The notes: generated by a model not told the origin, from the letters alone. A DNA stretch of 64,000 nt from Candidatus Woesebacteria bacterium GW2011_GWB1_39_10 (GCA_000993205.1 LBVU01000001.1:8155-72154); one strand, 5' to 3'; shown: positions 36,258 to 58,909, counted from the first letter of the stretch. Numbers and translations: made by a program.

Positions 36258-36278
36258 ATCCTGAAACAAGTTCAGGAT
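36258..36278 (+). repeat. hairpin element, copy 1 (ATCCTGAA-ACAAG-TTCAGGAT); overlaps the AGGA Shine-Dalgarno of nrdJ
   Basis: Second copy at 58734-58754, inside recF. Confidence 0.6.
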
Positions 36279-36286
36279 GACAAAAT

Positions 36287-38746
36287 ATGCCGGAAACAAT
36301 ACAAATACAAAAACCAAAAAAGAAACACACAAATGGGAAAAGCAAAAAACATTTAACGAATGCAGATTTTGTTTTTGAAGCTCCTGCAAATTCTACGTTA
36401 CTTGAAGGGATAAGAAAAGACGTTTTTCTTGACAGATATTCACTTAAGGACGAAACCGGCACACCGCTTGAGCAGTATCCCGAACAAATGTGGAAGAGAG
36501 TAGCTTTGGGGATTTCCCAACAAGAAAAACCGGCGCTAAGGAAAGTTTGGGAAGAAAAATTCTATAACGCGATGAGCGGATTTAAATTTGTCCCGGCGGG
36601 GCGTATTCTGTCCGGCGCCGGGACTCCTTATCAGGTTACTTATTACAACTGTTATGTAATTCCATCACCCAAAGACAGTCGTGGTGGAATTATGGAAAAC
36701 ATTACGATGACAGTAGAAATTCAGGCCAGAGGCGGTGGAGTCGGGGTGAATTTAAGTTCTTTAAGACCCAGGGGATCAAGAGTTAAAAAAGTAAATGGGA
36801 CCTCCTCCGGCCCTGTTAATTGGGCCGCTCTTTATTCAACGGCAAATCATGATGTGATCCAGCAGGGCGGTTCCCGCCGTGGGGCCCTGATGATAATGAT
36901 TAATGATTGGCACCCCGATGTTGAAGAATTTATTACAGTTAAACAGGATCTCACGAAAATTCCCGGCGCGAATCTTTCAGTATGTGTCTCCGACGCATTT
37001 ATGGATGCTGTTAAAACGGATGCCGATTGGAATTTAGTCTTTCCGGATAATGCCTATTATAAGTACGACGATGAGTGGGATGGAGACTTGGACAAATGGA
37101 AGGAGAAAGATTATCCGCTGATAGTTCACAAAACCATAAAAGCCAGAGAACTATGGAATTTGATTGGAGAAGCAGCATGGAAATCGGCCGAGCCGGGGGT
37201 GGTTTTTATTGACAGGTACAATAAATTGAGTAATACCTGGTATTTTGAAAAAATCATTGCCACCAACCCGTGTGGAGAGCAGGGCTTGGGAGCTTGGGGG
37301 GTTTGCAACCTGGGGCATTTGAATCTTCCGTCATTCATTCACGACGGGGCTGTCGACTTTAAACTTCTTGCAGAACACGCCTCAATTGCTACACGATTTT
37401 TAGACAATGTGGTAGATGCCAACTATTATTTTTATGAAGAAAATAAAAAGGCGCAACTGAATATAAGACGCACGGGACTCGGAACTTTGGGACTTGCGGA
37501 TGCATTAATCAAAATGAAACTTAAATACGGAAGCCCAGAATCCTTGGGGGTTATCGAAAAAATATACACAACGATTCGCGACGCGGCTTATACGACTTCA
37601 GCGCTTCTCGCCAAAGAAAAAGGATCTTTTGGAGGGTTCAGTAAAGAAAAATACCTAAAAGGTGTGTTTATCCAAAAACTTCCGGTAAAAATTAAACACA
37701 TGATTTCTAACCACGGAATAAGAAATGCTATAATTTTGACCCAAGCACCGACCGGTACAATCTCTCTTCTTGCGGGAGTTTCTTCCGGTATCGAGCCGGT
37801 TTACGAATTTAGTTATAAAAGAAACGATAGAACGGGGGAGCATATTGTTAATCACCCTCTTTACGACGAATGGTTTAAGAATCATCCGTCGGAAAAGATT
37901 CCGGATTATTTTGTCAGTGCCAGTGCCTTAACCCCAGAGGATCATGTGAAAGTTCAGGCAATGATCCAAAATTTAACTGACTCCTCGATAAGTAAGACCG
38001 TAAATGCTCCCAATTCTCACACGGTGGAAGATGTTAAAAAACTCTACCAGCTTGCATATGAACTTGGGTGTAAAGGTGTTACATATTTTAGAGACGGAAG
38101 TCGAACCGGAGTGTTATCCAAAGTTGACGACAAGCCTCAAGAAACTAAGTCAATCGTTACAGAACGCCCCTTAAGGGTTGACGGAGCAACATATAGAATT
38201 CCAACCCCGCTTGGTGTTGCCTTTATTACAGTAAATCAAGACCCGCTGGGAAATCCTTTTGAGGTATTTATTACCATAGGGAAGGCGGGAAGTGAGGTGG
38301 CTGCCCTTGCCGAGGCATTGGGTCGTATGATTTCTACAACTCTCAGATTTGGAAATCACAAGCCTCCTATCGAGCGGGCGCGTGAGATTATGGAACAACT
38401 TAAAGGAATTGGCGGAGGCAGATCGGTGGGGTTTGGACCGAATAAAATAAGATCGCTTCCCGATGCTGTGGCACGGGCGATATCTCTTCATTTTGGTTTC
38501 GGGGCTGACAAACACGATGCTGTAAACGGGGTTACTTTGCAGGTTGGAATGACTGTTTTGGCAGATGGTGCAGTACCAATGGACACGGCTTTAGTCGATT
38601 CAGCACCCGTTCCTGCCGCGCCCTCACCTTTGTTTGCTCAGGCACCTGTTAAAGCCGGAGACATTTGCCCTTCCTGCGGAAGTAGCGCCCTAGTTTATGA
38701 AGAGGGTTGTGCAAAGTGCCATGTGTGCGGACATTCAGAATGCTGA
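36287..38746 (+). CDS. nrdJ: adenosylcobalamin-dependent ribonucleotide reductase (class II, NrdJ) with a C-terminal zinc ribbon
   Basis: NPCGEQ active-site motif and CNLG. C-terminal CPSCG...CAKCHVCG. Confidence 0.85.
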   Translation: MPETIQIQKPKKKHTNGKSKKHLTNADFVFEAPANSTLLEGIRKDVFLDRYSLKDETGTPLEQYPEQMWKRVALGISQQEKPALRKVWEEKFYNAMSGFKFVPAGRILSGAGTPYQVTYYNCYVIPSPKDSRGGIMENITMTVEIQARGGGVGVNLSSLRPRGSRVKKVNGTSSGPVNWAALYSTANHDVIQQGGSRRGALMIMINDWHPDVEEFITVKQDLTKIPGANLSVCVSDAFMDAVKTDADWNLVFPDNAYYKYDDEWDGDLDKWKEKDYPLIVHKTIKARELWNLIGEAAWKSAEPGVVFIDRYNKLSNTWYFEKIIATNPCGEQGLGAWGVCNLGHLNLPSFIHDGAVDFKLLAEHASIATRFLDNVVDANYYFYEENKKAQLNIRRTGLGTLGLADALIKMKLKYGSPESLGVIEKIYTTIRDAAYTTSALLAKEKGSFGGFSKEKYLKGVFIQKLPVKIKHMISNHGIRNAIILTQAPTGTISLLAGVSSGIEPVYEFSYKRNDRTGEHIVNHPLYDEWFKNHPSEKIPDYFVSASALTPEDHVKVQAMIQNLTDSSISKTVNAPNSHTVEDVKKLYQLAYELGCKGVTYFRDGSRTGVLSKVDDKPQETKSIVTERPLRVDGATYRIPTPLGVAFITVNQDPLGNPFEVFITIGKAGSEVAALAEALGRMISTTLRFGNHKPPIERAREIMEQLKGIGGGRSVGFGPNKIRSLPDAVARAISLHFGFGADKHDAVNGVTLQVGMTVLADGAVPMDTALVDSAPVPAAPSPLFAQAPVKAGDICPSCGSSALVYEEGCAKCHVCGHSEC

Positions 38747-38768
38747 AAGCATTCTGAATATGAACTCA
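38744..38768. terminator. perfect palindrome TTCAGAATGCT-GAA-AGCATTCTGAA overlapping the nrdJ stop codon, followed by an imperfect long inverted repeat (38772-38855)
   Basis: Read directly from the sequence. No clear T-run. Confidence 0.35.
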
Positions 38769-38861
38769 AATCTAATATCTCAAATCTCAAAACTGTTCTG
38801 GATTTTAAATTTTAGATATAGATTTGAATTTTGATATTTGAGTTTTGAGTTATAATACTTC

Positions 38862-39431
38862 ATGTCAATTTACACAAAAACAGGAGATGAAGGAACTACA
38901 AAGGTTTTTGATAAAAAATCCGGTCAACTCGTTGGCATACGTAAAGATTCTTGTACGATCGCAGCGATTGGCGCCATTGACGAACTGAATTCTTTTTTGG
39001 GAATAATAAAAGCAGAGATATTAGGATATAAAGATACTAAGATATTAAGTGAGAAAAAAACTGCAATAAAAATAGAAGAAATACAGGGGAATCTTTTTAC
39101 GATAAATTCAATTCTTGCCGGGGCAAACCTGAGGTTTTCTAAAACAAAAACTAAAAAACTGGAAAAAGAGATTGATAAATGGGAGGGAGAGTTGCCCGTC
39201 CAAAAAAACTTCATTTTTTACGGGGGAACTCCAAGAGCTTCACAGCTCTTTTATGCGCGTGCCATCTGTCGCCGTGCTGAGCGTGCTCTGGTAGTACAGA
39301 GTACAGAGTACAAAGTACCTAGCGAGTTAATGATGTATATAAATCGCCTGTCTGATTATCTGTTTATGATGGCGAGAAGCGAAAACTTCAAAAATAAAGT
39401 TAAAGAAAATTTTTGGAAAAGTTCAAAATGA
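38862..39431 (+). CDS. pduO: ATP:cob(I)alamin adenosyltransferase, PduO-type, with an in-frame repeat insertion
   Basis: YTKTGDEGTT motif. The QSTEYKV segment is encoded by a heptamer array. Confidence 0.75.
   Translation: MSIYTKTGDEGTTKVFDKKSGQLVGIRKDSCTIAAIGAIDELNSFLGIIKAEILGYKDTKILSEKKTAIKIEEIQGNLFTINSILAGANLRFSKTKTKKLEKEIDKWEGELPVQKNFIFYGGTPRASQLFYARAICRRAERALVVQSTEYKVPSELMMYINRLSDYLFMMARSENFKNKVKENFWKSSK
39294..39318 (+). repeat. tandem heptamer array (AGTACAR)x3.5 inside pduO
   Basis: agtacag agtacag agtacaa agtacc. Confidence 0.8.
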
Positions 39432-39656
39432 ATCTTGCTTAAAATATTCTATCGAGAGTTTTTCGAAAACGCCATCCAGCATTTTTAGTTGCTTATGAAT
39501 ATTATCTAGCGTCTCTTTTAATTCAGGCTTCAGCCTAAAGTCCAACACATTGTTTATTTCAGCATACTGCATTAGCAATTGTTTCCTTCGGTTTTCCACC
39601 CTTTATCTTTTCCGAAAGTTCTTCAGGTTCCATGAATCAATTATACAGCACAGGAC

Positions 39657-39691
39657 TTGACAAACTTTAAGTAACATGTTACTTTATATGT
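39657..39691 (+). promoter_or_regulatory. promoter (-35 TTGACA) plus the 16-bp perfect palindrome AAGTAACATGTTACTT, a candidate antitoxin operator
   Basis: Palindrome at 39669-39684, upstream of the ATG at 39692. Confidence 0.4.
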
Positions 39692-39946
39692 ATGTTAACT
39701 AAACGCACTAATGTATTGTTCACGGAGGAAGATCATGCGATGCTTACCAATTTAGCCAGAGAGTCCAATAAAACAATAGGGGAGCTTGTGAGACATGCTG
39801 TTAAAAAGACATACAAAGCTAGGGTGGTAAAAGGTGGTATTAACAAAAGTTTGGAGCTAGCAATAAAGAAGTCTTGGAAAGCTGTTCTTCACCCCGAAAT
39901 ACCTATTGATTACAAAGCTCTGATTGAATATGGCCGCAAATATTAA
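39692..39946 (+). CDS. RHH (CopG-like) antitoxin
   Basis: 84 aa. N-terminal ribbon-helix-helix-like segment. Confidence 0.5.
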   Translation: MLTKRTNVLFTEEDHAMLTNLARESNKTIGELVRHAVKKTYKARVVKGGINKSLELAIKKSWKAVLHPEIPIDYKALIEYGRKY

Positions 39947-40325
39947 AAATTTTGTTTTAGATGCTTCATTTTTACTATCAGTATTACTTCCAGATGAACA
40001 AGGAACTCAGGTGGCAAAAGCAAACGCCAAACTATTAGTTGACGAAAAAAACAACTTTTTTGCACCCAAATTATTAGAGTTTGAAGTTTTAAATAGTATA
40101 AAAAGCGCAATAGTTAACAAAAGAATTAAGAAGGGTTCGATAAACGATGTACTACACGCGTTTGAAAAAACTAGAATTGTCTATGTAGATATAGATAGGA
40201 AAAAAGTTTTAAATCTTTCGATAAAGAATAGTCTCAGTTTTTACGATGCCTCATATTTATATCTTACTAGAGCAAATAAGACTAAACTACTTACTTTAGA
40301 CAAGAAGCTCAAGATGCTACTATAG
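39924..40325 (+). CDS. PIN-domain toxin (VapC-like)
   Basis: FVLDASFLL and a later SFYDASYL acidic motif. Confidence 0.65.
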   Translation: MNMAANIKNFVLDASFLLSVLLPDEQGTQVAKANAKLLVDEKNNFFAPKLLEFEVLNSIKSAIVNKRIKKGSINDVLHAFEKTRIVYVDIDRKKVLNLSIKNSLSFYDASYLYLTRANKTKLLTLDKKLKMLL

Positions 40326-40388
40326 CCTCCTAGGCTAGAGCTAAAAAGCCATAGCTAAAAAGCTATGGAAGTTTTACAATAAGGTTGT

Positions 40389-40736
40389 ATGGCTGCCACC
40401 CCTGAAACATTAAGACCGGAAGTTCCTCAAGTTGTTGAGCGACAAGAGGAGTTTGTTGTTCCCGAAACTCTTTCGGGGAGTGGGATCAAGGTGGTGCAGA
40501 AAAATTTTAAAGCTCAGGTTAAAAACGATAAAGGAGTTCCCGTCATCCAAACTCCTCCGACCCAAGTAATTACTGTTCAACCTCCTGCAGATACAGTTGC
40601 TCTTACAGCCTGGTCCAAAGGGGACACAACATTGGGAGCGACATGGCTTGGGGTTTTTTGGCTGCGAGTGATCAAAAAGGCATTGCATTTTGGTTGGAAG
40701 GTACTCGGGCTACGCCCGACGGATACTAGTAACTAG
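40389..40736 (+). CDS. small hypothetical protein with a C-terminal hydrophobic helix, upstream of the coupling-protein-like ATPase
   Basis: 115 aa. The last codons plus stop (PTDTSN*) are formed by GATACTAG repeat DNA. Confidence 0.4.
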   Translation: MAATPETLRPEVPQVVERQEEFVVPETLSGSGIKVVQKNFKAQVKNDKGVPVIQTPPTQVITVQPPADTVALTAWSKGDTTLGATWLGVFWLRVIKKALHFGWKVLGLRPTDTSN

Positions 40737-40758
40737 ATACTAGATACTGGCGGCTAGG
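40722..40758. repeat. GATACTA heptamer tandem array (GATACTA GTAACTA GATACTA GATACTG)
   Basis: Read directly from the sequence. Confidence 0.75.
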
Positions 40759-40767
40759 TTTCTAAAT

Positions 40768-43101
40768 ATGTTTATAGATCAGATAAATTTTACCGGCATA
40801 TTGTTTGCAGCGATCGCGATTGCGGTCTTGATTTTAATGCTATCGGCTCTGGGGTATGCAATTTTTATATTTTTTAAGAATAAGAATAGGGAAGAGGCAT
40901 CAATTGATTCGGTTCTTTTGCAGGTGGCGCTTCCCAGGAATAACGAATCAAAAATTGATGTGATGGAGCAGTTGTTTTCATCGCTTTACACCTTAAAGAA
41001 GGGGGGTTGGAAACAGAAGTTTTCAATTCAACCCACAGTTTCTTTTGAAATTGTTGCCAAACAGGAAGATATCAGGTTTTATGTTTGGTGTCCCAAGAAA
41101 ATAAAGGATTTGGTAGAAAAACAAATTAACGGCGCATACGCAGATGCTGAGATAATTGAAATTGACGAATATAACGTTTTTACAAAAGAGGGCAGAGTTG
41201 CTTATAAGTCATTCCAACTGGGTAAAGGCAATTTTTATCCAATCAAAACCTTTAAAGATTTACCCACGGATCCAATGAGCGCCATTACCTCGGCTTTGGC
41301 CAAAATGGGCCCTGAAGAGGCGGCTGTTATCCAGGTGCTACTTTCACCTGCGGAAAGCGATTGGCAAAAAGAAGGGGGAAAGTTTATCTCCGATACTAAA
41401 AAACAGGAAAGCGACCCCGAAAAGGCAAAATATTCTACCCCTGCAAAGACCTTAGAGGCTGTTGAAAATAAAATCGCAAAACCCGGTTTTGAAACCTCTG
41501 TTCGCATTGTGGTCGTTTCGACCGATGAAGATTCAGCAAAAAGCCATGTAACGAATATTGCAGGGGCCTTTGCCCTGTTTGCCGGTGACTTAAACAACCT
41601 AAAAAGCAGAAAAATATGGAGAAAGGGATCGTTTATGGAAGATTTTCTTTACAGGTACCAGCCAATGTTCAATCTTTTTGGGAATCACACATCAATTTTA
41701 AATTCCGAAGAACTTGCCACGATCTTTCATTTTCCCAATAGACAGATAACAACACCTCACATTTTTTGGTTAAATTCAAAAACAGCGCCGGCCCCGGCAC
41801 AAATTCCAACGGAAGGTCTCTATTTGGGGGTAAGCAATTACAGAGGAATAAAGCGTCCGGTATTTTTGGGAAATGAAGACAGAATGAGGCATGTTTACAT
41901 CATCGGAAAAACCGGAACCGGAAAGTCTGAGATTTTGAAGGATATGGTTATTCAGGATATTAAAGAGGGGAAAGGTGTTTGTTTTATGGATCCTCACGGT
42001 GACGCGATTGAAGATATTTTAAAAATGGTTCCGCCGGAGAGGGCCGAAGATGTAATTTATTTTAATCCCAGTGACACTGAAAGGCCTTTAGGGCTTAATC
42101 TTCTTGAAGCCAGAACCGAGGACGAAAAGCATTTTGCCGCAACAGCTGTAATTAACATGATGTACAAACTTTTTGACCCCTACAAAACGGGAATTGTAGG
42201 GCCCAGATTTGAACATGCAGTCAGAAATGCCATGCTTACGGCAATGTACGAGCCGGGAAGCACATTTGTCGAAATTATGAGGATTCTGACCGACTCAAAG
42301 TTTGTTCAAGAGCTTTTGCCAAAAGTTACAGACCCGATTATTAGACGTTATTGGACAGATCAAATTGCCCAGACTTCCGACTTTCATAAATCAGAAGTTT
42401 TGGATTACATTACATCAAAGTTCGGAAGATTCGTTACAAATAAATTAATTAGAAACATAATCGGGCAATCTCAAAGTTCTTTTGATCTACGTAAAGTTAT
42501 GGATGAAGGAAAAATTCTTTTAATTAATTTAGCCAAAGGAAGTTTAGGAGAGGAAAACTCAAACTTTTTAGGACTAATCCTTGTTCCACGCGTTTTAATG
42601 GCTGCCATGAGCAGGGTGGATATGCCGATGGAACAAAGAAAGGACTTTTATTTCTACGTAGACGAGTTTCAGAATTTTGCCACACCAGATTTTGCTGTAA
42701 TTTTGTCAGAGGCCCGTAAGTACCGGCTTGGGCTTTGTGTCGCCAACCAGTTTATAGGGCAAGTTGAAGAAGAGGTTAAAAACGCAGTCTTCGGAAATGT
42801 TGGTACGATTGTCGCTTTCAGAGTTGGTGTAACAGATGCTAATTATTTGGCTCACGAATTTGCTCCCGTTTTCGGTGAAGATGATTTACTTAATGTTGAG
42901 CGTTATCATGCGTTTTGTAAAACAATAGTTAGCAACGAACCCGTTCCTCCTTTTTCAATGGACCTTACAAAAGACATGAGTAAACAAAAAGCCGCCGAGA
43001 GTGAACGAATTGCAGAAATCATAAAAGAAATGAGCCGTCTTAAATATGGACGAGACGAAAAATTAGTGGAAGCGGAGATAACCCGCAGAGCGAAGCTCTG
43101 A
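40768..43101 (+). CDS. FtsK/HerA/TrwB-superfamily P-loop ATPase with an N-terminal TM anchor (type IV secretion coupling-protein-like, TraD/VirD4/TrwB_AAD_bind-like)
   Basis: Walker A YIIGKTGTGKSE and Walker B YFYVDEFQNF. N-terminal TM helix. 777 aa. Confidence 0.55.
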   Translation: MFIDQINFTGILFAAIAIAVLILMLSALGYAIFIFFKNKNREEASIDSVLLQVALPRNNESKIDVMEQLFSSLYTLKKGGWKQKFSIQPTVSFEIVAKQEDIRFYVWCPKKIKDLVEKQINGAYADAEIIEIDEYNVFTKEGRVAYKSFQLGKGNFYPIKTFKDLPTDPMSAITSALAKMGPEEAAVIQVLLSPAESDWQKEGGKFISDTKKQESDPEKAKYSTPAKTLEAVENKIAKPGFETSVRIVVVSTDEDSAKSHVTNIAGAFALFAGDLNNLKSRKIWRKGSFMEDFLYRYQPMFNLFGNHTSILNSEELATIFHFPNRQITTPHIFWLNSKTAPAPAQIPTEGLYLGVSNYRGIKRPVFLGNEDRMRHVYIIGKTGTGKSEILKDMVIQDIKEGKGVCFMDPHGDAIEDILKMVPPERAEDVIYFNPSDTERPLGLNLLEARTEDEKHFAATAVINMMYKLFDPYKTGIVGPRFEHAVRNAMLTAMYEPGSTFVEIMRILTDSKFVQELLPKVTDPIIRRYWTDQIAQTSDFHKSEVLDYITSKFGRFVTNKLIRNIIGQSQSSFDLRKVMDEGKILLINLAKGSLGEENSNFLGLILVPRVLMAAMSRVDMPMEQRKDFYFYVDEFQNFATPDFAVILSEARKYRLGLCVANQFIGQVEEEVKNAVFGNVGTIVAFRVGVTDANYLAHEFAPVFGEDDLLNVERYHAFCKTIVSNEPVPPFSMDLTKDMSKQKAAESERIAEIIKEMSRLKYGRDEKLVEAEITRRAKL

Positions 43102-43190
43102 CGGGGGAGACTAGAGCCTAGATACTTAGATACTGGCAACTTCACTACTTGAGTTTTTCCTTTTAATATCCTAGTATCGGGTATCTAATC
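43100..43190. repeat. TAGATACT repeats (CCTAGATACTTAGATACTGGC ... CCTAGTATCGGGTATC)
   Basis: Shares TAGATACT(T)AGATACTGGC with 40735-40755. Confidence 0.65.
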
Positions 43191-43192
43191 AT

Positions 43193-44095: not shown

Positions 44096-44120
44096 CAGAA
44101 TGGTATAATAGCCTCATTAC

Positions 44121-51244: not shown

Positions 51245-51249
51245 CTAAA

Positions 51250-51285
51250 ATACTTCAATACTATATAGTATTGAAGTGATGTAAT
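51250..51285. repeat. 26-nt perfect palindrome ACTTCAATACTATATAGTATTGAAGT (terminator-like); partial copy at 11040-11070
   Basis: Read directly. Shares ACTATATAGTATTGAAGT with 11048-11068. Confidence 0.6.
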
Positions 51286-51289
51286 AGAA

Positions 51290-52435: not shown

Positions 52436-52880
52436 GCTTTTTAGGTTGGTACAACTCCAGGCAATTGCTTTCGTAGTAGTTTACTTTCTTATTTCCAACT
52501 TGTTTGTTGTTAAATTTATTACCAATCCAAATATTTATATTTCTTTTTTCTCTTCATTAATTTTTGGTTCTGTTTCTGTGTTTGCTTTCCTATATCTTTT
52601 TTCTCATCAGAATTTCCTTCCGTTTTTTAAGAACCTACAAGGCAGTCAAGACAAAAAGGAAAAAAAGTATTTAAAAAGTTATATAAAATATGGAAAATTT
52701 TTAGCTTGCATAATTGTAGGAATATTGGGTGGGCCGATATTTTTGGCTTTAACAATTAGATTCTTGTTCCCGCGATCAAAGAATAAATATTTGATAGGTT
52801 TTGTTTCTACTTTTGTATCTACAGTAATAGTAATATTTTTTGGAAAGAGTATTTTGGAGTTAATTAGATTTAAATTTTAA
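52416..52880 (+). CDS. small polytopic membrane protein (paralog of 57350-57778)
   Basis: Shares FLY(L/F)FSH...KYGKF...G(I/V)..GP(I/L)...RFL with the other copy. Confidence 0.4.
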   Translation: MPKTKNRLFRLVQLQAIAFVVVYFLISNLFVVKFITNPNIYISFFSSLIFGSVSVFAFLYLFSHQNFLPFFKNLQGSQDKKEKKYLKSYIKYGKFLACIIVGILGGPIFLALTIRFLFPRSKNKYLIGFVSTFVSTVIVIFFGKSILELIRFKF

Positions 52881-52886
52881 AAAACA

Positions 52887-53750
52887 ATGCCGGAATTACC
52901 AGAGGTCGAGTCAATGAAACTTCAGCTTGCAAAGTTCCTTGTCGGGCACAAGATACTTGGCGTAGAAATTCGAAATCCGAAATACGAAATTCGAAAAGAT
53001 ATCATAGGAGGGAAGATAACAGGAATCAGAAGATTTGGGAAAGTTTCTGTGATAGATCTTGATAATGGTTATTCAATCCTTACACACGTAAAACTTACTG
53101 GCCAATATATTTATCGTGGTCCAAATTTACCTAAACCCTATACGCTATCCGCTAAAGTTATCGGAGGTATCCCCGGGCCACATACTTTGGTAATTTTCAA
53201 ATTAGATCACGATGGTGTTTTGTATTACAACGATGTTCGTCGTTTTGGGTGGATAAAAATTGTGGATAGCGGACAGGTGATAGCGGATAGGTTTATAGAT
53301 AAACTGGGACCAGAGCCCTTCGGCAAGCCTCAGGGTAAACCCTCTCTTCTAACCTTGGATTTGTTCAAACAAATATTATCCAAAACTTCCCGTCCAATTA
53401 AAATCGTTCTTATGGACCAGACGAAAGTGGGGGGGGTGGGGAATATTTATGCAAACGATGCGCTTTGGCTTGCCAAAATTAATCCAAAGCGAAAAGCGAA
53501 TAGTGTAGAAGGAAAAGAGGCTAAAGAATTATATGAAGCAATATTAACTGTATTAAGAGAAGGGTTAAAATACGGAGGGGCAAGTGAGCTTGCATTTGTG
53601 ACGCCGGATGGGAAAGAGGGAAAATATCAAAATCATACGTTGGCTTATGGACATGAAGGAGAACTTTGCGGCCGTTGTCATAAGGCTAAATTTATTAAAT
53701 ATTTTCTCGGCGGGCGCGGGACTTATGTTTGCCCAAACTGTCAGAAATAG
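52887..53750 (+). CDS. formamidopyrimidine-DNA glycosylase / endonuclease VIII family (Fpg/Nei) with an in-frame heptamer-repeat insertion
   Basis: N-terminal MPELPEVE. C-terminal zinc finger CGRCH...CPNCQ. The EIRNPKYEIRKD segment comes from a GAAAYYC array. Confidence 0.75.
   Translation: MPELPEVESMKLQLAKFLVGHKILGVEIRNPKYEIRKDIIGGKITGIRRFGKVSVIDLDNGYSILTHVKLTGQYIYRGPNLPKPYTLSAKVIGGIPGPHTLVIFKLDHDGVLYYNDVRRFGWIKIVDSGQVIADRFIDKLGPEPFGKPQGKPSLLTLDLFKQILSKTSRPIKIVLMDQTKVGGVGNIYANDALWLAKINPKRKANSVEGKEAKELYEAILTVLREGLKYGGASELAFVTPDGKEGKYQNHTLAYGHEGELCGRCHKAKFIKYFLGGRGTYVCPNCQK
52965..52998 (+). repeat. tandem heptamer array (GAAATYC)x about 5 inside the fpg gene
   Basis: gaaattc gaaatcc gaaatac gaaattc gaaaag. 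Confidence 0.85.
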
Positions 53751-53788
53751 GGAAACACAAGACAAAATATTGTCATTTGGCTTACAAT

Positions 53789-54397
53789 ATGGGTATGCAT
53801 TTGACCACACCGGAGATAATAGATCTTCTTTTTAAATTCAGATACGCAATCTTGTTTCCTGTTGCCTTTCTTGAGGGTCCGGCAGTGGCGGTTGTCGCCG
53901 GATTTATGATCGCCATTGGCTTTATGAGTTTTATACCCGCCTATCTAATTTTGATATCAGCTAATATTTTGGGAGATATTGTCTATTATTTTATAGGAAG
54001 ATTGACACCTCGTAAAAAGTTAGATAAAGCATTAATGTTTTTTAGAATTAACGATAAGAGCATAAAAAGAGCTGAGGAATTGTTTGTCAAAAACAGAAAA
54101 AAGGCAATAATTTTTGGTAAAATTGCGCATGCGGTCGGTAGTGTCTTTTTAATAACGGCGGGAATAGTAAAGATTCCTCTGAATGAGTATTTAAAGCTGG
54201 GTACATTAATCGAACTGCCGAAGGCACTTATTTTCTTAATGATCGGCTACTATTTAGGCCACTCGGTGAGTAATCTTGGCAAAGTTGTTGACTACTCTAT
54301 AATAGGCTTTATATTGGTAACGATAATACTAATTGTGATTGGTCACTTAGTCAGTAAATATGCAGATAAACAGATAGAGAATCCAGATATAAAATGA
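53789..54397 (+). CDS. DedA-family (VTT domain) membrane protein (start chosen at the internal ATG 53789; the ORF-track start 53729 overlaps fpg)
   Basis: LFPVAFLEGPAVAVVAGF motif. Multiple TM helices. Confidence 0.65.
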   Translation: MGMHLTTPEIIDLLFKFRYAILFPVAFLEGPAVAVVAGFMIAIGFMSFIPAYLILISANILGDIVYYFIGRLTPRKKLDKALMFFRINDKSIKRAEELFVKNRKKAIIFGKIAHAVGSVFLITAGIVKIPLNEYLKLGTLIELPKALIFLMIGYYLGHSVSNLGKVVDYSIIGFILVTIILIVIGHLVSKYADKQIENPDIK

Positions 54398-55785
54398 AGA
54401 TAATTTTTGCGACAGATTTTTACTATCCACAGACCGGTGGTATTGAGGTGTCTACCCGTAGGCTATCTCAGAAGTTGTCTGAGGCTTGTAATCAGGTTTT
54501 TATAATCGCACCTTCGAAATCGTTTCGCGATAAAACATATAGGGAGGGGTCTGTGACAATATTTGGAATGGGGTCTATTCAGATACCTTTTTACAAGAGT
54601 GCTAGATATTCACCTTCGTTGCTATTAAAAAACAAAATTTCCAAAATACTTACTGAAATTAAACCAGACGTGGTCCATGTACAGACCAATTTGTCGATTG
54701 GGCGTTTGGCGAGTGTATGCGCACAAAGGTTGGGAATTTCTACTGTTGCAACTGGCCATTTTATGGCAGAGGATTTTGTACGCACCTTGAAATTGCCTCA
54801 TTTTTCATGGAAATTTATTAACGATATTTCGCACACTTTCTCTTATTCGATTTGGAAGAAGGTTGATATCTTTACAGTGCCAACAGACACAGCTGCCAAC
54901 TATTTTGCTGAAAAACATGGTTTTGAGAAGAAGATCTTAACAATTTCAAATGGCGTTGATATAAAGAAATTTAAATCGAACAGGTCAAATCAGAAGCAAG
55001 TTCCTACAATCGCAGTAGTTGGGAGATTGGATTCAGCAAAAAGAGTCGATGTAGTAATAAAAGCTTTACCGGATATCTTAAAGAAGATGAGAGTGAATTT
55101 AATTATTGTTGGATCTGGTTTAGAAATGCAAAATCTTAAAAACATGGCTAGAAATTTAGGAGTTAGAGGACATGTACGTTTTAAGGGTTTTTTGCCGGAA
55201 CAAAAAGTAGCGGAATTATATAGAAGAGTAAATCTCCTAGCGACCGCTTCGGTAATAGAGACACAAGGTTTAGCAGTATTAGAAGCGTTAGCGTCCGGTT
55301 TACCGGTAGTGGCGGCTAATGCTGGGGCAACTCCAGAGCTTGTAAGAGAAGGTGTCAATGGATACCTATTCAACCCGGATGACCCAGCTTCATTTGCAAC
55401 CAGGGTGATTAAGATTCTCTCAAATAAAAAATTGATGATTAAAATGGGTAAAGAAAGTGTAAAAATAGCCAAAAAACACGATATCGACGAAGTTGTTGTA
55501 AAGATGCAGGGTTTGTATCAAAAGGCAATAGCAATTAATTCGATGCGGGCATTAAACACGAAGTATGTACCTTTCTATAGATCAAAAGGTTTTATTGTAA
55601 GGCTCGCAGTTGTCGGACTTGTGTTATCATTCCTTTTCAGAAACGTTCTGGCGTCACCATCCAAAGTTAGTGCCAGGGAGCTGGTAATCAAAAATAAAAT
55701 AATGAATTCTAAGATTGTTAAAAAGATAGAGAATTTGGACATAAAAGTGAAAGAAAAATTTCCCCTTCGTAACCCTTCAAGATAG
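54394..55785 (+). CDS. glycosyltransferase family 4
   Basis: MKIIFATDFYYPQTGG N-terminus. C-terminal E..A.G.PVV motif. Confidence 0.7.
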   Translation: MKIIFATDFYYPQTGGIEVSTRRLSQKLSEACNQVFIIAPSKSFRDKTYREGSVTIFGMGSIQIPFYKSARYSPSLLLKNKISKILTEIKPDVVHVQTNLSIGRLASVCAQRLGISTVATGHFMAEDFVRTLKLPHFSWKFINDISHTFSYSIWKKVDIFTVPTDTAANYFAEKHGFEKKILTISNGVDIKKFKSNRSNQKQVPTIAVVGRLDSAKRVDVVIKALPDILKKMRVNLIIVGSGLEMQNLKNMARNLGVRGHVRFKGFLPEQKVAELYRRVNLLATASVIETQGLAVLEALASGLPVVAANAGATPELVREGVNGYLFNPDDPASFATRVIKILSNKKLMIKMGKESVKIAKKHDIDEVVVKMQGLYQKAIAINSMRALNTKYVPFYRSKGFIVRLAVVGLVLSFLFRNVLASPSKVSARELVIKNKIMNSKIVKKIENLDIKVKEKFPLRNPSR

Positions 55786-57357
55786 TTGTGTTATTATAAT
55801 TTAATGCTCAAGGATATCGAGAATTCAAGTTATGAAATTTTAGGGGATGATAATCTTCAGATAGACAGAATTATTTCAAAAGAAAATAACAATTTAATAC
55901 TTCAACTACGGGCGCGAAACACTTCAAATAAACCGGTTAAGATTTTTTCTTTTGTGGTTGCGGATTTTATTCTTCCCAGCAAAATCGAAAAAGTCTTGGA
56001 ACATGGCTGGCTTCAGTGCAGTGAAGTTTCTTGGAAAAACCCCGATGAGCCCACGAAAGAAACCAAACTGTTCCTGCAACGGGACCAGAATCATTTTTCG
56101 TTTAAGAAAGAGTATGGATATATAGAAAACTCAGTTATTAGCGAGTGGTTTACGTTAATAAAAATGTATGGAGGTGATTTGTTTATCGGGGCGGTTACCA
56201 CCGCTGATCAGTTCTCTCAAATTTTTGTTAAAAAAGAAGAGGGTGGGACAAGGGTTAGGGTTACATGCCAATACGACGGACTAACTTTAAGTCCGGGACA
56301 AGTTGTAAAAAGCGAGAAAATATTTTTTGCGGTTGGGGAGGAGAGCAAAATTAAAAAAGATTTTGCTGAAAGCCTGGCGAAACATATGAATGTAAAAAAA
56401 GTCGCCCCACCAATCCGAGCGATGTGTAATTCATATTATTGGAATGAGAATAAGATAGACGACAAAATAATAAACAATGAGTTAGACGCTATCGAGAAGA
56501 TGTCAGAACATCTCAATCTTGATTATTTTGAGCTCGATGCAGGTTATACAAAATATTTTGGTGACTGGTTGGATTATAAGGATCGGTTTCCAAAAGGTTT
56601 TGAACGAATTATAAGCAAGATTGAAGCTCTTGGTTATAAGCCTGCTATATGGATTTCTCCCTTTGCAATAAGCCCTGCTACCAAACTTCATGACCACCAC
56701 GCAAGTTGGCTTTTGAAAAGCAGCCACAAAAAACATTTTGAAGGAAGATGGACAAGCCCGGTAGATAACTTGTCCAACGATATAGACCTTGAGGTTTTGG
56801 ATCCGACTAACGATGAAGTCAAAAAATATCTCAAGGGAGTTTTAACTCATTTTATGGACTTGGGATTTGAACTTTTTAATACCGATTTTATGTATCCTGT
56901 ATGTTTGGCTGAAAAATATTCAAAACCTGTCACGAGGGCCCAAGCATTGCGGGAGGGGGTACAGTTTATTAGGGATACCGTAGGTGACCTAAAGTTAAAA
57001 TCCTGCATAACCCAACTTTCTCCAATGGTTGGATTGATAGATTATGTAAGAACCGGAATTGACACATTAAATCCGTTCGTTTGTTTCATCCCTGGGGTTA
57101 ACAGGATGATAAACGACTTCATGCTTGAGAAAAATATTCAAGAAAGTGAGGAACGATTATTCCTAAACAGGGTAGTGTGGAATGCAGATCCCGACGTATT
57201 GGTTTTTAGAGACGGAACAGGAATCGACGAAGCCGTGATTAGTAAGCATAAAAAAATGGCCAAGGAAAATAATATGTCGCTTTGGTTTGGGGACAGTGTT
57301 GCCAACATGGACGAGGTCACCAGAGAAAAGGTTTTGAAATTTTTCAATAATGTTTAA
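55786..57357 (+). CDS. hypothetical protein, possible TIM-barrel glycoside hydrolase (alpha-galactosidase-like)
   Basis: A LDAGYTKYFGDW...KPAIWISPF segment resembles GH27/36-type barrels. Weak call. Confidence 0.35.
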   Translation: MCYYNLMLKDIENSSYEILGDDNLQIDRIISKENNNLILQLRARNTSNKPVKIFSFVVADFILPSKIEKVLEHGWLQCSEVSWKNPDEPTKETKLFLQRDQNHFSFKKEYGYIENSVISEWFTLIKMYGGDLFIGAVTTADQFSQIFVKKEEGGTRVRVTCQYDGLTLSPGQVVKSEKIFFAVGEESKIKKDFAESLAKHMNVKKVAPPIRAMCNSYYWNENKIDDKIINNELDAIEKMSEHLNLDYFELDAGYTKYFGDWLDYKDRFPKGFERIISKIEALGYKPAIWISPFAISPATKLHDHHASWLLKSSHKKHFEGRWTSPVDNLSNDIDLEVLDPTNDEVKKYLKGVLTHFMDLGFELFNTDFMYPVCLAEKYSKPVTRAQALREGVQFIRDTVGDLKLKSCITQLSPMVGLIDYVRTGIDTLNPFVCFIPGVNRMINDFMLEKNIQESEERLFLNRVVWNADPDVLVFRDGTGIDEAVISKHKKMAKENNMSLWFGDSVANMDEVTREKVLKFFNNV

Positions 57358-57778
57358 ATCGGTTCACCTAAAGGCCTTATTTGTATGGATAGTTTATTCG
57401 GTAATCACAAAAGCATCTTTTTTGGCTGGTTCCATTAAAACCGAGGTTATGTCCGCCTTTTCATTAAATGTTTTTTTAAGTGTATTCTTTGGAATTTTAT
57501 TTTTATATTTTTTTAGTCACGAAGATTTTTTTAAATTTGCAAAAGAAATCGAAAACAAAAACATCAAAAGCGAGAGGCGATGGGAACACAGGTTTTTACA
57601 TTATGGAAAATTGACATCGGCTATATTAATTGGAGTTGCGACAGGGCCCTTGATTGGGGCCTTGGCAGCGAGGTTTTTATTGGTAAAATTTAAGTATAAA
57701 TATTTGACAGTAAGTTTGTCTTCAGCTTTAGGGTCAATTTTTTGGCTTGGGGTTGCAAGAGGTATCATCCGCATTTAA
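57350..57778 (+). CDS. small polytopic membrane protein (paralog of 52416-52880)
   Basis: See the paralog. Also follows a sugar-active enzyme gene. Confidence 0.4.
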   Translation: MFKSVHLKALFVWIVYSVITKASFLAGSIKTEVMSAFSLNVFLSVFFGILFLYFFSHEDFFKFAKEIENKNIKSERRWEHRFLHYGKLTSAILIGVATGPLIGALAARFLLVKFKYKYLTVSLSSALGSIFWLGVARGIIRI

Positions 57779-57790
57779 ACTTACGTCTCA

Positions 57791-58909
57791 ATGATATCCA
57801 GCATAAAACTTTCCAATTTCAGAAATTTTAAATCTAAGAATTTTGAATTTTCTGACAAAATCACAACAATTGTCGGGCCGAACGCTTCAGGGAAAACTAA
57901 TATTTTAGAAGCTCTTTACCTTCTTTCGACGGGAAAAAGTTTCAAAGCCAGAACTGAGGTGGAAATGATTCAATATGGGAGTGAATTAGCTAGTGTAGAA
58001 GGGTCCCACTTCGCCAAGGCTACGAGGGACGACCGATCTCTTTTAAAGGTAATTATTACAAATAAAATTAATGGATGGCCCGGAAAAAGAGTTTTATTAA
58101 ATAATGTACCCAAGAGATTGGTCGATTTTGCGGGAAATTTTAAGACGGTTTTGTTTGGACCTTGGGACATGGATTTGGTAACAGATTCCCCGTCGCTTCG
58201 GCGAAAATTTTTAGATACGGTTTTATCCCAGACTGATAGAGAATATCGCCGCTCAATTCTTTCTTATGAAAAAGGAATAAGACAAAGAAACAAACTTTTG
58301 TGGAGAATACGCGAGGACCCTTCATTACATTCAGGGCGAGAGGGGTTATTGCTTTTTTGGAACCAGCTGTTAATTAAATCCGGCAATTATATTACCGATC
58401 AAAGGGAAAAATTTATTGTTTTCGCGAATACTACCAATGAACACCAATTCCAAAGTGTTCACGCTGGTGCGATAAATACCAATTACCAATTGAAATACGA
58501 TCAGTCCACAATATCTGAAGGACGGTTGGAACAGTATTCTAAAGAAGAGGTGATGGCGGCGACAACTTTAGTTGGACCACATAGGGATGATATGCAATTT
58601 AAAATTAATAATTCAAAATTTAAAATTGAGAGGAACTTGGCCGCATTCGGGAGCAGGGGGGAGCAAAGAATGGGAGTTTTGTGGTTAAAGTTGGCGGAGT
58701 TGGATTATATTGAACTTCAAAGCAAGAATGAAGGTCCTGAAACAAGTTCAGGACGTCCAACGTTGTTGTTGGACGACATATTTTCCGAACTTGACCATGA
58801 ACACAGAGACGTTGTAATGGAGTTGGCCAAGAGACAACAGACGGTAATAACAACCGCAGATGAGCATTTTTTGAACAAAGGTAAATTTGGTGGTAAAATC
58901 GAACTCTAA
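57791..58909 (+). CDS. recF: DNA replication and repair protein RecF carrying two in-frame repeat-element insertions
   Basis: Walker A GPNASGKTN. Walker B / D-loop LLLDDIFSELD. Extra segments SHFAKATRDD and GPETSSGRP come from repeat elements. Confidence 0.8.
   Translation: MISSIKLSNFRNFKSKNFEFSDKITTIVGPNASGKTNILEALYLLSTGKSFKARTEVEMIQYGSELASVEGSHFAKATRDDRSLLKVIITNKINGWPGKRVLLNNVPKRLVDFAGNFKTVLFGPWDMDLVTDSPSLRRKFLDTVLSQTDREYRRSILSYEKGIRQRNKLLWRIREDPSLHSGREGLLLFWNQLLIKSGNYITDQREKFIVFANTTNEHQFQSVHAGAINTNYQLKYDQSTISEGRLEQYSKEEVMAATTLVGPHRDDMQFKINNSKFKIERNLAAFGSRGEQRMGVLWLKLAELDYIELQSKNEGPETSSGRPTLLLDDIFSELDHEHRDVVMELAKRQQTVITTADEHFLNKGKFGGKIEL
58004..58028 (+). repeat. GC-rich 25-nt element, copy 2 (TCCCACTTCGCCAAGGCTACGAGGG), inside recF
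   Basis: Matches 17584-17610 and 62047-62072. Confidence 0.8.
58734..58754 (+). repeat. hairpin element, copy 2 (GTCCTGAA-ACAAG-TTCAGGAC), inside recF
   Basis: Matches 36258-36278. Confidence 0.7.

What the first reader, a model, noticed from the sequence alone, without database searches (positions are those of the whole stretch)
36258..58754. A hairpin element (7-9-bp stem, ACAAG loop) sits on the nrdJ ribosome-binding site and is duplicated in frame inside recF
ATCCTGAA-ACAAG-TTCAGGAT lies at 36258-36278. Its 3' arm contains the AGGA Shine-Dalgarno located 10 nt before the nrdJ ATG, so the hairpin could gate translation initiation of the B12-dependent RNR. A near-identical copy at 58734-58754 is inside recF, encoding GPETSSGRP just before the conserved LLLDD Walker B region. 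recF therefore carries two unrelated repeat insertions.
Basis: partly seen in the sequence, partly recalled or inferred. Interest (0 to 1): 0.55.

Follow-up and report, generated by a model that had tools for sequence, protein, structure and literature searches.

The report
Known CGTC-type REP hairpin repeat
The hairpin in front of nrdJ and inside recF is a copy of a small palindromic repeat (a "CGTC-tagged REP") already described in many bacterial phyla; it is here seen in a candidate-phyla-radiation bacterium, and nothing indicates it is a dedicated switch for nrdJ.

Summary
ATCCTGAAACAAGTTCAGGAT lies at 36258-36278, 8 nt before the nrdJ ATG. GTCCTGAAACAAGTTCAGGAC lies at 58734-58754, in frame in recF. 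A third, diverged copy lies at 9000-9018 in epmA.

The hairpin is not specific to nrdJ. An exact scan of species-representative genomes found the same 17-mer in many phyla. It nearly always has the same flanks (G-stem-ACAAG-stem-GAC[G/A]), and about half the sites have an inverted partner nearby. This matches the CGTC-tagged REP superfamily of Di Nocera et al. 2013, most likely family CGTC-2. That family has an 8-bp stem starting with AT, a 5-nt loop and a CGTC or TGTC tag. The paper also reports intragenic copies in DNA-repair genes.

No relative examined has the element upstream of nrdJ, and one has a matching spacer that lacks it. The AGGA is part of the REP consensus, and this genome shows no Shine-Dalgarno enrichment. 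So a regulated translational gate is not supported, although a passive effect of a -8.4 kcal/mol hairpin is possible.

In recF the element encodes a loop between the signature helix and Walker B, at a site where many Woesebacteria RecFs carry variable inserts.

Verdict: a new member of a known kind, of modest interest.

The parts
36254..36284 (+). Canonical CGTC-2-type REP copy in the nrdR-nrdJ spacer. It has a 5' G (36257), stem arms at 36258-36265 and 36271-36278, and an ACAAG loop at 36266-36270. The unpaired tag GACA at 36279-36282 reads TGTC on the - strand, so the tag-first orientation used by Di Nocera et al. is the - strand.
   Evidence: Model R1 scores it 48.7 bits, E = 8e-13, and it matches the consensus at every specified position. 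RNA hairpin energy is -8.4 kcal/mol.
58730..58760 (+). In-frame intragenic REP copy in recF: aaG-GTCCTGAA-ACAAG-TTCAGGAC-GTC. It encodes (E)GPETSSG(R). The consensus A-T base pair is G-C here, and the tag's TGA stop is absent (GGA CGT instead of GGA TGA).
   Evidence: R1 scores it 34.2 bits. Orthologue L142 has GGACGAC, one base from the consensus GGATGAC. It lies in a low-confidence loop (residues 313-323) of the AlphaFold model.
8995..9025 (+). REP-like hairpin inside epmA/genX: aaG-ACCCTGAG-ACAAG-CTCAGGGC-AAG, with a 7-bp perfect stem. It encodes TLRQAQG. It has no tag and causes no length change in the protein. Membership of the family is probable but its origin is unresolved.
   Evidence: R1 scores it 22.3 bits, E = 2e-4. 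There is no indel against 120 homologues or Salmonella GenX 3G1Z. Close relative L226 has no hairpin.
35743..36177 (+). nrdR, the gene upstream of the hairpin.
   Evidence: Pfam Zn_ribbon_NrdR plus ATP-cone.
36287..38746 (+). nrdJ, a class II ribonucleotide reductase. Its ATG is 8 nt after the hairpin stem.
   Evidence: Pfam Ribonuc_red_lgC/lgN and TSCPD. A cobalamin adenosyltransferase gene follows at 38862-39431.
57791..58909 (+). recF, the host gene of the intragenic copy.
   Evidence: Pfam SMC_N/AAA. Homologues are named RecF by their sources.
8156..9187 (+). epmA/genX (EF-P lysine aminoacylase, a class II LysRS paralogue), host gene of the third hairpin.
   Evidence: Pfam tRNA-synt_2. It is identical to a protein of Candidatus Woesebacteria GW2011_GWA2_40_7, and homologues are named EpmA/GenX. 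Best PDB matches are GenX 3G1Z and 3A5Z.
36207..36222 (.). Context only, not part of the repeat: a likely NrdR box, ACACAACAAGTTGTGT, in the same spacer.
   Evidence: It has C4, A6, A8, T11 and G13 of the published box. It shares ACAAGTTGTG with the S. coelicolor nrdRJ box 2 (PMC13584703). It is kept with compensatory changes in L128.

Best explanation
The hairpin is a member of the CGTC-tagged REP (repetitive extragenic palindrome) superfamily, most likely family CGTC-2. These are small stem-loop repeats scattered in bacterial genomes, singly or as inverted pairs.

Shown here:
- The nrdJ-proximal copy is a full-consensus unit: G, an 8-bp stem starting AT, an ACAAG loop, and a GACA (= TGTC) tag.
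- It is absent from every related nrdR-nrdJ locus examined, so it is a lineage-specific insertion in that spacer.
- The recF copy is the same unit sitting in frame in a surface loop between the signature-motif helix and the Walker B strand. The stop codon carried by the tag has been mutated away.
- The epmA copy is a diverged, untagged version embedded without any change in protein length.

Inferred:
- The units arrived by the still unknown mobilisation route of CGTC REPs. No dedicated transposase is known. An ssDNA hairpin handled by an HUH-type enzyme, as for GTAG REPs and RAYT, is the analogy.
- Copies survive where they do no harm: in spacers, or in frame, free of stops, in tolerant protein loops.
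- Pairing is kept either by weak selection on the hairpin or by template-switch correction of near-palindromes.
- In RNA the unit folds into a -8 to -11 kcal/mol stem-loop. At nrdJ this may passively affect mRNA stability or initiation, but it is not a regulated gate.
For: 1. Distribution. Hits fall in Sphingomonadales, Bacteroidota, Treponema, Gracilibacteria, Patescibacteria, Gastranaerophilales, a Rickettsia endosymbiont, Nitrospinota and others.
2. Shared anatomy. Of 141 sites, 119 carry the GAC tag (GACG 73 = CGTC, GACA 37 = TGTC). 127 have the 5' G. 111 have both outer base pairs complementary. 77 have an inverted GTC-tagged partner within 170 nt. Stem variants covary: UA/CG/AU and CG/GC/UA.
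3. Match to the published definition (Di Nocera et al. 2013, PMC3733652): a CGTC or TGTC tag, 8-bp stems with AT first, a 5-nt loop for family 2, head-to-head dimers, no associated transposase, and intragenic copies in repair genes and tRNA synthetases. Their Sulfurovum CGTC-2 insert RHSELVSGS back-translates to this hairpin on the other strand. A Sulfurovum plasmid copy lies in a 4Fe-4S protein gene.
4. No recurrent neighbouring gene across the 120 loci.
5. The window copies score 48.7, 34.2 and 22.3 bits with a model built from other phyla.
6. Related nrdJ loci lack the element, and L128 provides an empty site.
7. RecF. Most homologues read IEEKT-GE-RPTLLLDD. Roughly a quarter carry family-type inserts such as GPETSSG, GTETSSA, PEINSG and DPETSSGLNS. 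DNA confirms this for L142, L143 and L144, and shows empty sites in L146 and L147. The insert lies in a low-pLDDT loop.
Against: - Figure 2 of the 2013 paper, which holds the family consensus sequences, could not be read. Assignment to subfamily CGTC-2 rests on the text description and one back-translated example.
- All window copies are singletons, and only three were found in 64 kb. About 180 kb from relatives held none outside recF. This is not a high-copy family in these genomes.
- The recF and epmA copies lack the defining tag.
- The epmA hairpin involves no insertion, and a relative with 88% amino-acid identity has no hairpin there. It may have arisen in place.
- Mobilisation was not observed. 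It is inferred only from presence/absence between diverged genomes.
Confidence: 0.85

Rival explanations
1. One reading: the hairpin is a cis-regulatory element that hides the nrdJ Shine-Dalgarno sequence and gates translation of the B12-dependent reductase.
For: The hairpin is predicted in the minimum-energy fold of the spacer and is stable at -8.4 kcal/mol. Its 3' arm holds AGGA, 9 nt before the ATG. Di Nocera et al. note that REPs near 5' ends may act post-transcriptionally.
Against: The AGGA belongs to the repeat consensus found in many phyla. The genome shows no Shine-Dalgarno enrichment: 8 of 59 genes against 11% of random 14-mers. The element is absent from every related nrdR-nrdJ locus examined. 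Rfam has no match, and I saw no alternative or sensing structure. A likely NrdR box already supplies regulation in this spacer. A -10-like TAGAAT at 36249-36254 would place a transcription start inside the 5' arm; this last point is inference only.
Confidence: 0.06
2. The copies are REP-derived but co-opted. The hairpin is kept by selection at the nucleotide level, for example as an mRNA stabiliser or translation damper at nrdJ, or as an RNA or DNA structure within recF.
For: Among four RecF genes with 64-68% amino-acid identity to the window's, conserved residues keep the same codon in all four only 15% of the time outside the hairpin (30 of 195). Inside it the figure is 3 of 4, and the one change, ACA to ACG, is a loop variant the family allows. 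The stop in the tag was removed by a change that kept pairing (GAT..ATG to GGT..ACG). In epmA the stem holds a compensated G-C pair not seen in 142 other copies.
Against: Only four sequences were compared. Recent independent insertions of the same consensus would look identical. Template-switch correction of near-palindromes produces compensatory changes without selection (established knowledge, not tested here). The epmA hairpin is lost in close relatives, and the nrdJ copy is not conserved.
Confidence: 0.15
3. For the epmA copy only: it is not a transposed REP. It is a native coding segment (LRQAQGK, a variant of the usual AERKRLGK) that became a perfect palindrome in place, and it resembles the family by convergence.
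For: There is no length change against 120 homologues or Salmonella GenX. Four relatives encode LRQAQ with CTT CGR CAR GCY CAG, which does not fold. The window differs from them by synonymous changes (CTG AGA) that complete the stem. The tag is missing.
Against: My estimate of the chance that TLRQAQG is encoded by exactly the hairpin-forming codons is below 1e-3. The model E-value is 2e-4. Homologues show T..G, M..H and I..D pairs whose codons (ACC..GGC, ATG..CAC, ATC..GAC) match the family's three main stem variants.
Confidence: 0.35
4. The hairpin is a double-stranded operator for a dimeric DNA-binding protein, either NrdR or another regulator.
For: It is palindromic, it sits next to a likely NrdR box, and it shares the core AACAAGTT with that box.
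Against: It does not fit the NrdR box. No 16-mer centred on it has C4 and G13 (read from the sequence against PMC13584703). The conserved asymmetric loop and one-sided tag are not features of a symmetric operator. Copies lie inside genes and in unrelated contexts across phyla.
Confidence: 0.03

Closest known systems
CGTC-tagged REPs, family CGTC-2 (Di Nocera, De Gregorio and Rocco, BMC Genomics 2013; PMC3733652)
   Same: An unpaired CGTC or TGTC tag at one end. An 8-bp stem whose first two pairs are A-T and T-A. A 5-nt loop. Single units and head-to-head dimers. No linked transposase. Occurrence in Alphaproteobacteria, Bacteroidetes, Spirochaetes and Sulfurovum. Occasional in-frame copies in DNA-repair genes and tRNA-synthetase-type genes.
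   Different: The host here is a Patescibacteria/CPR bacterium (Woesebacteria), a group not among the five phyla listed in 2013. Copy number is low and all copies are singletons. Two of the three copies are intragenic. The recF and epmA copies have lost the tag. The tail is CTT rather than CCA.
Rickettsia palindromic elements (RPE). By the 2013 paper, RPE-4 and RPE-6 are CGTC-4 and CGTC-1 repeats
   Same: Palindromic repeats inserted in frame into conserved protein genes, adding short peptide loops that the protein tolerates.
   Different: The classic RPE-1 is 100-150 bp. Here a single 21-25 nt unit adds about 8 residues. The host is a CPR bacterium, not an obligate intracellular alphaproteobacterium.
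GTAG REPs, REPINs and their RAYT (TnpA-REP) transposases
   Same: The same general design: a short hairpin with an unpaired tetranucleotide at its foot, inverted doublets and intergenic dispersal. This is the best available analogy for how such units could move as single-stranded hairpins.
   Different: The tag is CGTC/TGTC, not GTAG. No RAYT-like or other gene recurs beside the copies. GTAG REP sequences are lineage-specific, whereas this 25-mer is nearly identical across phyla.
Translational riboregulators that occlude the ribosome-binding site (RNA thermometers, riboswitch expression platforms)
   Same: A stem-loop whose 3' arm covers a purine-rich motif just upstream of a start codon.
   Different: It is not conserved at orthologous genes. 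It has no sensing domain or alternative fold. The purine motif belongs to a repeat consensus, in a genome that shows no Shine-Dalgarno enrichment.

Membership tests
CGTC-tagged REP superfamily (Di Nocera et al. 2013) | Short stem-loop with an 8-9 bp stem and a 4-5 nt loop (8 bp and 5 nt for family 2) | tested here: met
   nrdJ and recF copies: 8-bp perfect stem and 5-nt loop. epmA copy: 7 bp and 5 nt. Definition.
CGTC-tagged REP superfamily (Di Nocera et al. 2013) | [quoted passage not shown] | tested here: met
   nrdJ copy: GACA at 36279-36282, which is TGTC on the - strand. recF copy: GGAC in the window and GGTC in L142, so degenerate. epmA copy: absent. In other phyla 119 of 141 copies have GAC, with GACG 73 and GACA 37.
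CGTC-tagged REP superfamily (Di Nocera et al. 2013) | Stem begins with complementary A and T residues in the first and second positions | tested here: met
   nrdJ copy: AT...AT. recF copy: GT...AC, where the first pair changed to G-C and the pairing was kept. epmA copy: A/C mismatch, then C-G.
CGTC-tagged REP superfamily (Di Nocera et al. 2013) | Short unpaired tail at the untagged end, consensus CCA | tested here: inconclusive
   The tail of the nrdJ copy on the - strand is CTT, so only the first C fits. The C (G on the + strand) is present in 127 of 141 copies elsewhere. Sphingomonad copies read ...GGATCCAT, which fits CCA.
CGTC-tagged REP superfamily (Di Nocera et al. 2013) | Repeated and dispersed in the genome, with units mostly paired head-to-head | tested here: inconclusive
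   Three copies in 64 kb, all single. Elsewhere 77 of 141 copies have an inverted tagged partner. A REP-like dimer lies in the epmA-efp spacer of relative L226. The whole genome was not available.
CGTC-tagged REP superfamily (Di Nocera et al. 2013) | Sequence identity with listed CGTC-2 members | tested here: met
   The Sulfurovum CGTC-2 insert RHSELVSGS fits CGTCATTCTGAACTTGTTTCAGGATC by back-translation. Identical 25-mers occur in Novosphingobium, Sphingobium, Sphingopyxis, Erythrobacter and on a Sulfurovum plasmid. The consensus figure itself could not be read.
CGTC-tagged REP superfamily (Di Nocera et al. 2013) | No dedicated transposase gene flanked by the repeats | tested here: met
   All-against-all clustering of ORFs from 120 loci found only generic families, none linked to the element. 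This is consistent with the family but is not a positive criterion.
GTAG REP / REPIN-RAYT | GTAG (GTRG) tetranucleotide at the hairpin foot and association with a RAYT gene | tested here: not met
   The foot is GTC(A) or CGTC. No RAYT-like neighbour was found.
Cis-regulatory RNA that occludes the ribosome-binding site | Conservation of the structure upstream of orthologous genes, and a functional Shine-Dalgarno sequence being masked | tested here: not met
   Absent from all 18 related nrdJ loci that hold upstream sequence. No Shine-Dalgarno enrichment in the window. No Rfam family.
NrdR operator | 16-bp box with C4, A6, A8, T9, T11 and G13, paired with a second box 15-16 bp away (PMC13584703) | tested here: not met
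   No 16-mer centred on the hairpin has C4 and G13 (read). The neighbouring palindrome at 36207-36222 does fit.

The most novel reading that the evidence does not exclude
CGTC REPs may still be active or selected in Woesebacteria. The same RecF loop, between the signature helix and Walker B, carries family-type hairpins in many lineages that are interspersed with empty-site lineages. These copies include different stem and loop variants (ACAAG, ACGAG and, judged from the peptide only, ATAAA), and their synonymous sites are frozen. Either a site-selective mobilisation system for this superfamily exists in CPR bacteria, although no transposase for it has ever been found, or the hairpin has a function inside recF. 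The latter would echo the unexplained excess of REPs in DNA-repair genes noted in 2013.
Probability: 0.15. Interest if true: 0.6.

Novelty: new member of a known kind. Interest (0 to 1): 0.3.

Why it matters
Mainly this prevents a misreading. A tidy hairpin over a purine-rich motif in front of a B12-dependent reductase looks like a riboregulator, but it is a generic repeat.

It also extends CGTC-tagged REPs to the Patescibacteria/CPR. It shows that in these compact genomes most copies seen (two of three here, and all three copies of a second repeat family) lie in frame inside conserved genes, including recF.

If insertion into the RecF loop proves recurrent or selected, Woesebacteria metagenomes would offer natural presence/absence series. 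These could address two open questions: how CGTC REPs move, and why REPs so often sit in repair genes.

Tried and rejected
- Rfam, at gathering threshold on the window and on 16 loci, and with permissive E-values on 36150-36330, gave only tRNAs, chance snoRNA-like hits and Flavo-1.
- Full-text searches for the nucleotide strings and the encoded peptides found nothing relevant. A search combining palindromic, in-frame and Patescibacteria found nothing. The family was found through a RAYT/REPIN search.
- A search for a gene recurrently linked to the element (RAYT, transposase) among 2,651 ORFs from 120 loci found none.
- The hairpin as an NrdR box was rejected on the positions of C4 and G13.
- I considered from memory, and dropped without a formal test, a tRNA anticodon or T-arm mimic, a parS half-site (TGTTTCAG against TGTTTCAC), a LexA/Cheo box and a hammerhead core. 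None fits the conserved positions.
- A promoter scan found no consensus-type promoter in the nrdR-nrdJ spacer. The TAGAAT I mention is my own reading.
- A fourth weak model hit at 26400-26438 on the - strand (18 bits, 13-nt loop, inside an ORF) is treated as doubtful.
- DNA for RecF homologue P0016 could not be fetched. PEINSG-type inserts, which imply an ATAAA loop, are therefore inferred from peptides only.
- A neighbour-joining tree of RecF is star-like, so the number of independent gains cannot be counted reliably.

Full report
**Observation.** ATCCTGAAACAAGTTCAGGAT lies at 36258-36278 and GTCCTGAAACAAGTTCAGGAC at 58734-58754. Each is a perfect 8-bp stem with an ACAAG loop. The first ends 8 nt before the ATG of a class II ribonucleotide reductase gene, nrdJ (36287-38746). 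It lies 80 nt after the stop of nrdR (35743-36177). A cobalamin adenosyltransferase gene follows nrdJ. The second is in frame in recF (57791-58909) and reads GPETSSG just before RPT-LLLDD.

A hairpin scan found a third copy, CCCTGAGACAAGCTCAGGG, at 9000-9018. It lies inside a class II LysRS paralogue, epmA/genX, and reads TLRQAQG in a different frame. Three exact matches to the degenerate core compare with 0.41 expected even with three mismatches allowed. The organism is a Candidatus Woesebacteria (Patescibacteria/CPR). The EpmA protein is identical to one from Woesebacteria GW2011_GWA2_40_7.

**The element is not local to this genome.** The hosts include Sphingomonadales, Bacteroidota, Treponema, Gracilibacteria, a Patescibacteria MAG, Gastranaerophilales, a Rickettsia endosymbiont, Nitrospinota and Dadabacteria.

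The flanks, which were not part of the query, are conserved. Of 141 sites, 127 have G just 5' of the stem and 119 have GAC just 3' of it (GACG 73, GACA 37). In 111 sites both outer base pairs are complementary (gaT..Atg or gaC..Gtg). In 77 sites an inverted, GTC-tagged hairpin lies within 170 nt on the untagged side.

Related hairpins in the same loci use other stems (GCTGAA, TCTGAA, GCCGAA) and loops (ACGAG, ATAAA, TCAAG), always with matching arms. Most sites are intergenic: the median longest covering ORF is 73 aa, against 375 aa for random positions. About a fifth lie in long open frames. No gene recurs next to the element.

Copies also occur on sphingomonad, Treponema and Sulfurovum megaplasmids, where they are unannotated. 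They occur on 73 viral or proviral contigs, and 56 of 81 sites there carry the full flanks. The nrdJ copy (taaG-ATCCTGAA-ACAAG-TTCAGGAT-GACAaa) equals this cross-phylum consensus at every specified position.

**Identification.** The anatomy is that of the CGTC-tagged REP superfamily described by Di Nocera, De Gregorio and Rocco (2013, PMC3733652). Read on the other strand, the unit is (C/T)GTC-AT-CCTGAA-CTTGT-TTCAGG-AT-C. The paper states the following:
[quoted passage not shown] - Loops are 4 nt in family 1 and 5 nt in families 2-4.
- The units end in a short tail.
- Head-to-head dimers predominate.
- The repeats occur in Proteobacteria (mainly alpha), Chlorobi, Bacteroidetes, Spirochaetes and Thermotogae.
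- No dedicated transposase is associated with them.

An 8-bp stem with a 5-nt loop indicates family CGTC-2. Their supplementary table lists a Sulfurovum CGTC-2 unit inside a ferredoxin-like protein that encodes RHSELVSGS. This back-translates to CGT CAT TCT GAA CTT GTT TCA GGA TC, the same hairpin. My best plasmid hit is a Sulfurovum copy inside a 4Fe-4S protein gene.

The paper also reports intragenic REPs. Many lie in replication and repair genes (uvrABCD, recBCD, polA, dnaE2) and some in tRNA synthetases. That parallels recF and the LysRS paralogue epmA here. I could not read the figure that holds the family consensus sequences, so the subfamily label is probable rather than certain. Rfam has no family for the unit. 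A 2025 REP survey does not mention Patescibacteria.

**The nrdJ copy.** I fetched 19 related nrdJ loci from metagenomes. In most, nrdR and nrdJ are 1-45 nt apart and there is no hairpin. L128 (83% amino-acid identity) has a long spacer homologous to the window's, including the upstream palindrome. It runs ...gttgaagat|aaaaatATG where the window has ...aataagat-CCTGAAACAAGTTCAGGATGAC-aaaatATG. A covariance model built from 90 copies from other phyla finds no copy at any of these loci. So the element is a lineage-specific insertion, not a conserved control element.

The AGGA in the 3' arm is part of the repeat consensus. In this window only 8 of 59 genes have GGAG, GAGG or AGGA at -18 to -5, against 11% of random 14-mers. 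Many genes instead have TATAAT-like hexamers a few bases before the ATG, so Shine-Dalgarno-led initiation does not appear to be the rule.

The spacer already holds a good NrdR box, ACACAACAAGTTGTGT, at 36207-36222. It has C4, A6, A8, T11 and G13, and it shares ACAAGTTGTG with the validated S. coelicolor nrdRJ box 2. L128 keeps this box with compensatory changes. A weak second box at 36239-36254 contains a -10-like TAGAAT. If that hexamer is used, transcription would start inside the 5' arm of the hairpin. This is inference only.

The hairpin does fold in the predicted structure of the spacer, with an energy of -8.4 kcal/mol. A passive effect on read-through transcripts from nrdR is therefore possible.

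**The recF copy.** Among 120 Woesebacteria-type RecF proteins (334-398 aa), most read ...IEEKT-GE-RPTLLLDD. Roughly a quarter carry family-type peptides at exactly this point: GPETSSG, GTETSSA, GLETSSG, PEINSG, DPETSSGLNS. Others carry different hairpin-like inserts: RLRQGSGEA, SGQAG, STSLTIRRS.

DNA from four insert-bearing genes confirms the unit:
- Window: ggt cct gaa aca agt tca gga cgt.
- L142: ...gaa acg agt tca gga cga c. This is GGACGAC, one base from the consensus GGATGAC. The change removes the TGA stop, while GAT to GGT on the other arm keeps the pairing.
- L143: ggt act gaa aca agt tca gca.
- L144: gac cct gaa aca agt tca ggg ttg aac.

Two empty sites read agt gga gag caa cca (L146) and aca ggt gag aaa ccg (L147).

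Residues conserved in all four genes keep the same codon in all four in 30 of 195 cases outside the hairpin, but in 3 of 4 cases inside it. The single change inside (ACA to ACG) is a loop variant the family allows.

On a neighbour-joining tree the insert-bearing sequences are scattered among empty-site ones, but the tree is star-like. Either the same loop has been hit repeatedly, or an old insertion has been kept at the nucleotide level and lost many times. I cannot decide between these.

An AlphaFold model (mean pLDDT 71.6) places residues 313-323 in a low-confidence loop between helix 289-312 (after the signature motif) and the Walker B strand 324-328. This fits a tolerated surface insertion.

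**The epmA copy.** This case is different. The 120 homologues and Salmonella GenX (3G1Z) align here without any gap...RFEADKTLRQAQGKLDFPIDEDF against ...[23 protein letters not shown]. The common Woesebacteria sequence is DLAERKRLGKT.

Several homologues read TLRQAQG, MLRQAQH or ILRQAQD. Their outer codons (ACC..GGC, ATG..CAC, ATC..GAC) correspond to the three main stem variants of the family. But in four relatives, including one with 88% identity, LRQAQ is encoded by CTT CGR CAR GCY CAG, which does not fold. The model does not detect those relatives.

The perfect 7-bp stem is therefore specific to the window lineage and lacks the tag. It may be an old embedded unit that was re-perfected, or a native near-palindrome completed in place. 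I give the second reading about one chance in three.

**How it most likely works.**
- Shown: the unit belongs to a widespread, structurally constrained hairpin repeat. Its presence at nrdJ is recent and not shared. In recF it is translated as a loop.
- Inferred: it spread by the still unknown route of CGTC REPs, by analogy with GTAG REPs handled as single-stranded hairpins by RAYT transposases. It persists where harmless. Its stem is kept by weak selection or by template-switch correction.
- In compact CPR genomes with little spacer DNA, tolerated positions are often inside genes. That may explain why two of three copies here, and all three copies of a second repeat family, are intragenic.

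**Verdict.** The translational-gate interpretation is not supported. The element is a new member, in a new host phylum, of a known kind of repeat. The residual interest lies in the recurrent or conserved occupation of one RecF loop.

Noticed in passing
window 58005-58021 (recF), 17585-17601 (ORF 17385-18506), 62048-62064 (ORF 61145-62869): A second short repeat, CCCACTTCGCCAAGGCT, within a CCCC...GGGG hairpin. All three copies lie inside ORFs, in three different frames (HFAKATR, PLRQGSEG, PTSPRLRG). The core CTTCGCCAAGGCT also forms the RLRQGSGEA insert at the Walker B-proximal RecF site of relative L145.
   Followed up: partly
window 36207-36222; L128 about 1400-1420: ACACAACAAGTTGTGT fits the NrdR box (C4, A6, A8, T11, G13) and shares ACAAGTTGTG with the S. 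coelicolor nrdRJ box 2. It sits inside a longer hairpin (TTCAG...CTGAA). L128 keeps both stems through compensatory changes (CATACAACGAGTTGTATG, TTCAA...TTGAA). A second box 15-16 bp away is only weak (36239-36254).
   Followed up: partly
RecF alignment (window residues about 77, 92, 180, 218-229, 276-279, 318): Woesebacteria RecF proteins range from 334 to 398 aa. This is because several fixed hot spots carry variable short inserts that look like translated hairpin repeats, for example GPVGSSSRSTFLADAAGAQRDS, PFGRSG and INTNKYKYPI. The window RecF has inserts at three or four of these spots, all in low-pLDDT parts of the model.
   Followed up: partly
whole window, 25 nt upstream of 59 ORFs: There is no Shine-Dalgarno enrichment (8 of 59 genes, against 11% at random). 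Many genes have TATAAT-like hexamers 3-13 nt before the ATG, which suggests leaderless or very short-leader mRNAs in this genome.
   Followed up: partly
window 58754-58775: Directly after the recF REP there is a second inverted repeat, CGTCCAAC-GTTGTT-GTTGGACG. It encodes RPTLLLDD, the Walker B motif. It may be chance or may relate to the insertion site.
   Followed up: no
L226 1417-1493 against window 9187-9304: A relative with 88% EpmA identity has about 137 extra nt in the epmA-efp spacer. This includes a head-to-head pair of CGTC-like hairpins: TGTC-ATTCTCG..CGGAAT-C and G-GATTCCCAG-TCAAA-CTGGGAAA-GAC. The pair is absent from the window.
   Followed up: partly
L032 2396-2412 (Patescibacteria MAG JAHJQJ010000031.1): A full-consensus unit lies in frame (ILKQVQDD) inside a 485-aa open frame that looks like a membrane protein. 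This is another intragenic copy in a CPR genome.
   Followed up: partly
L078 1-89 and L080 about 5775-5810 (Flavobacterium): Two units sit back to back (GTCCTGAACTTGTTTCAGGAT-CCTGAAACAAGTTCAGGAC). In L078 they fall within the span of a match to the Flavo-1 RNA family (49.7 bits, cut off at the locus 5' end). The match covers more sequence than the model positions it aligns to, so the dimer may be an insertion into that RNA gene.
   Followed up: no
L038 1709-1725 (Rickettsia endosymbiont of Polydrusus): The unit and a diverged inverted partner lie inside a 1,137-aa open frame that looks like isoleucyl-tRNA synthetase, in a segment that reads like a palindromic-element insertion.
   Followed up: no
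window 26400-26438 (- strand): A weak model hit (18 bits), AAATCCCGAA-13 nt-TTCTGGATGAT, lies inside ORF 26390-26689. It is probably chance.
   Followed up: partly
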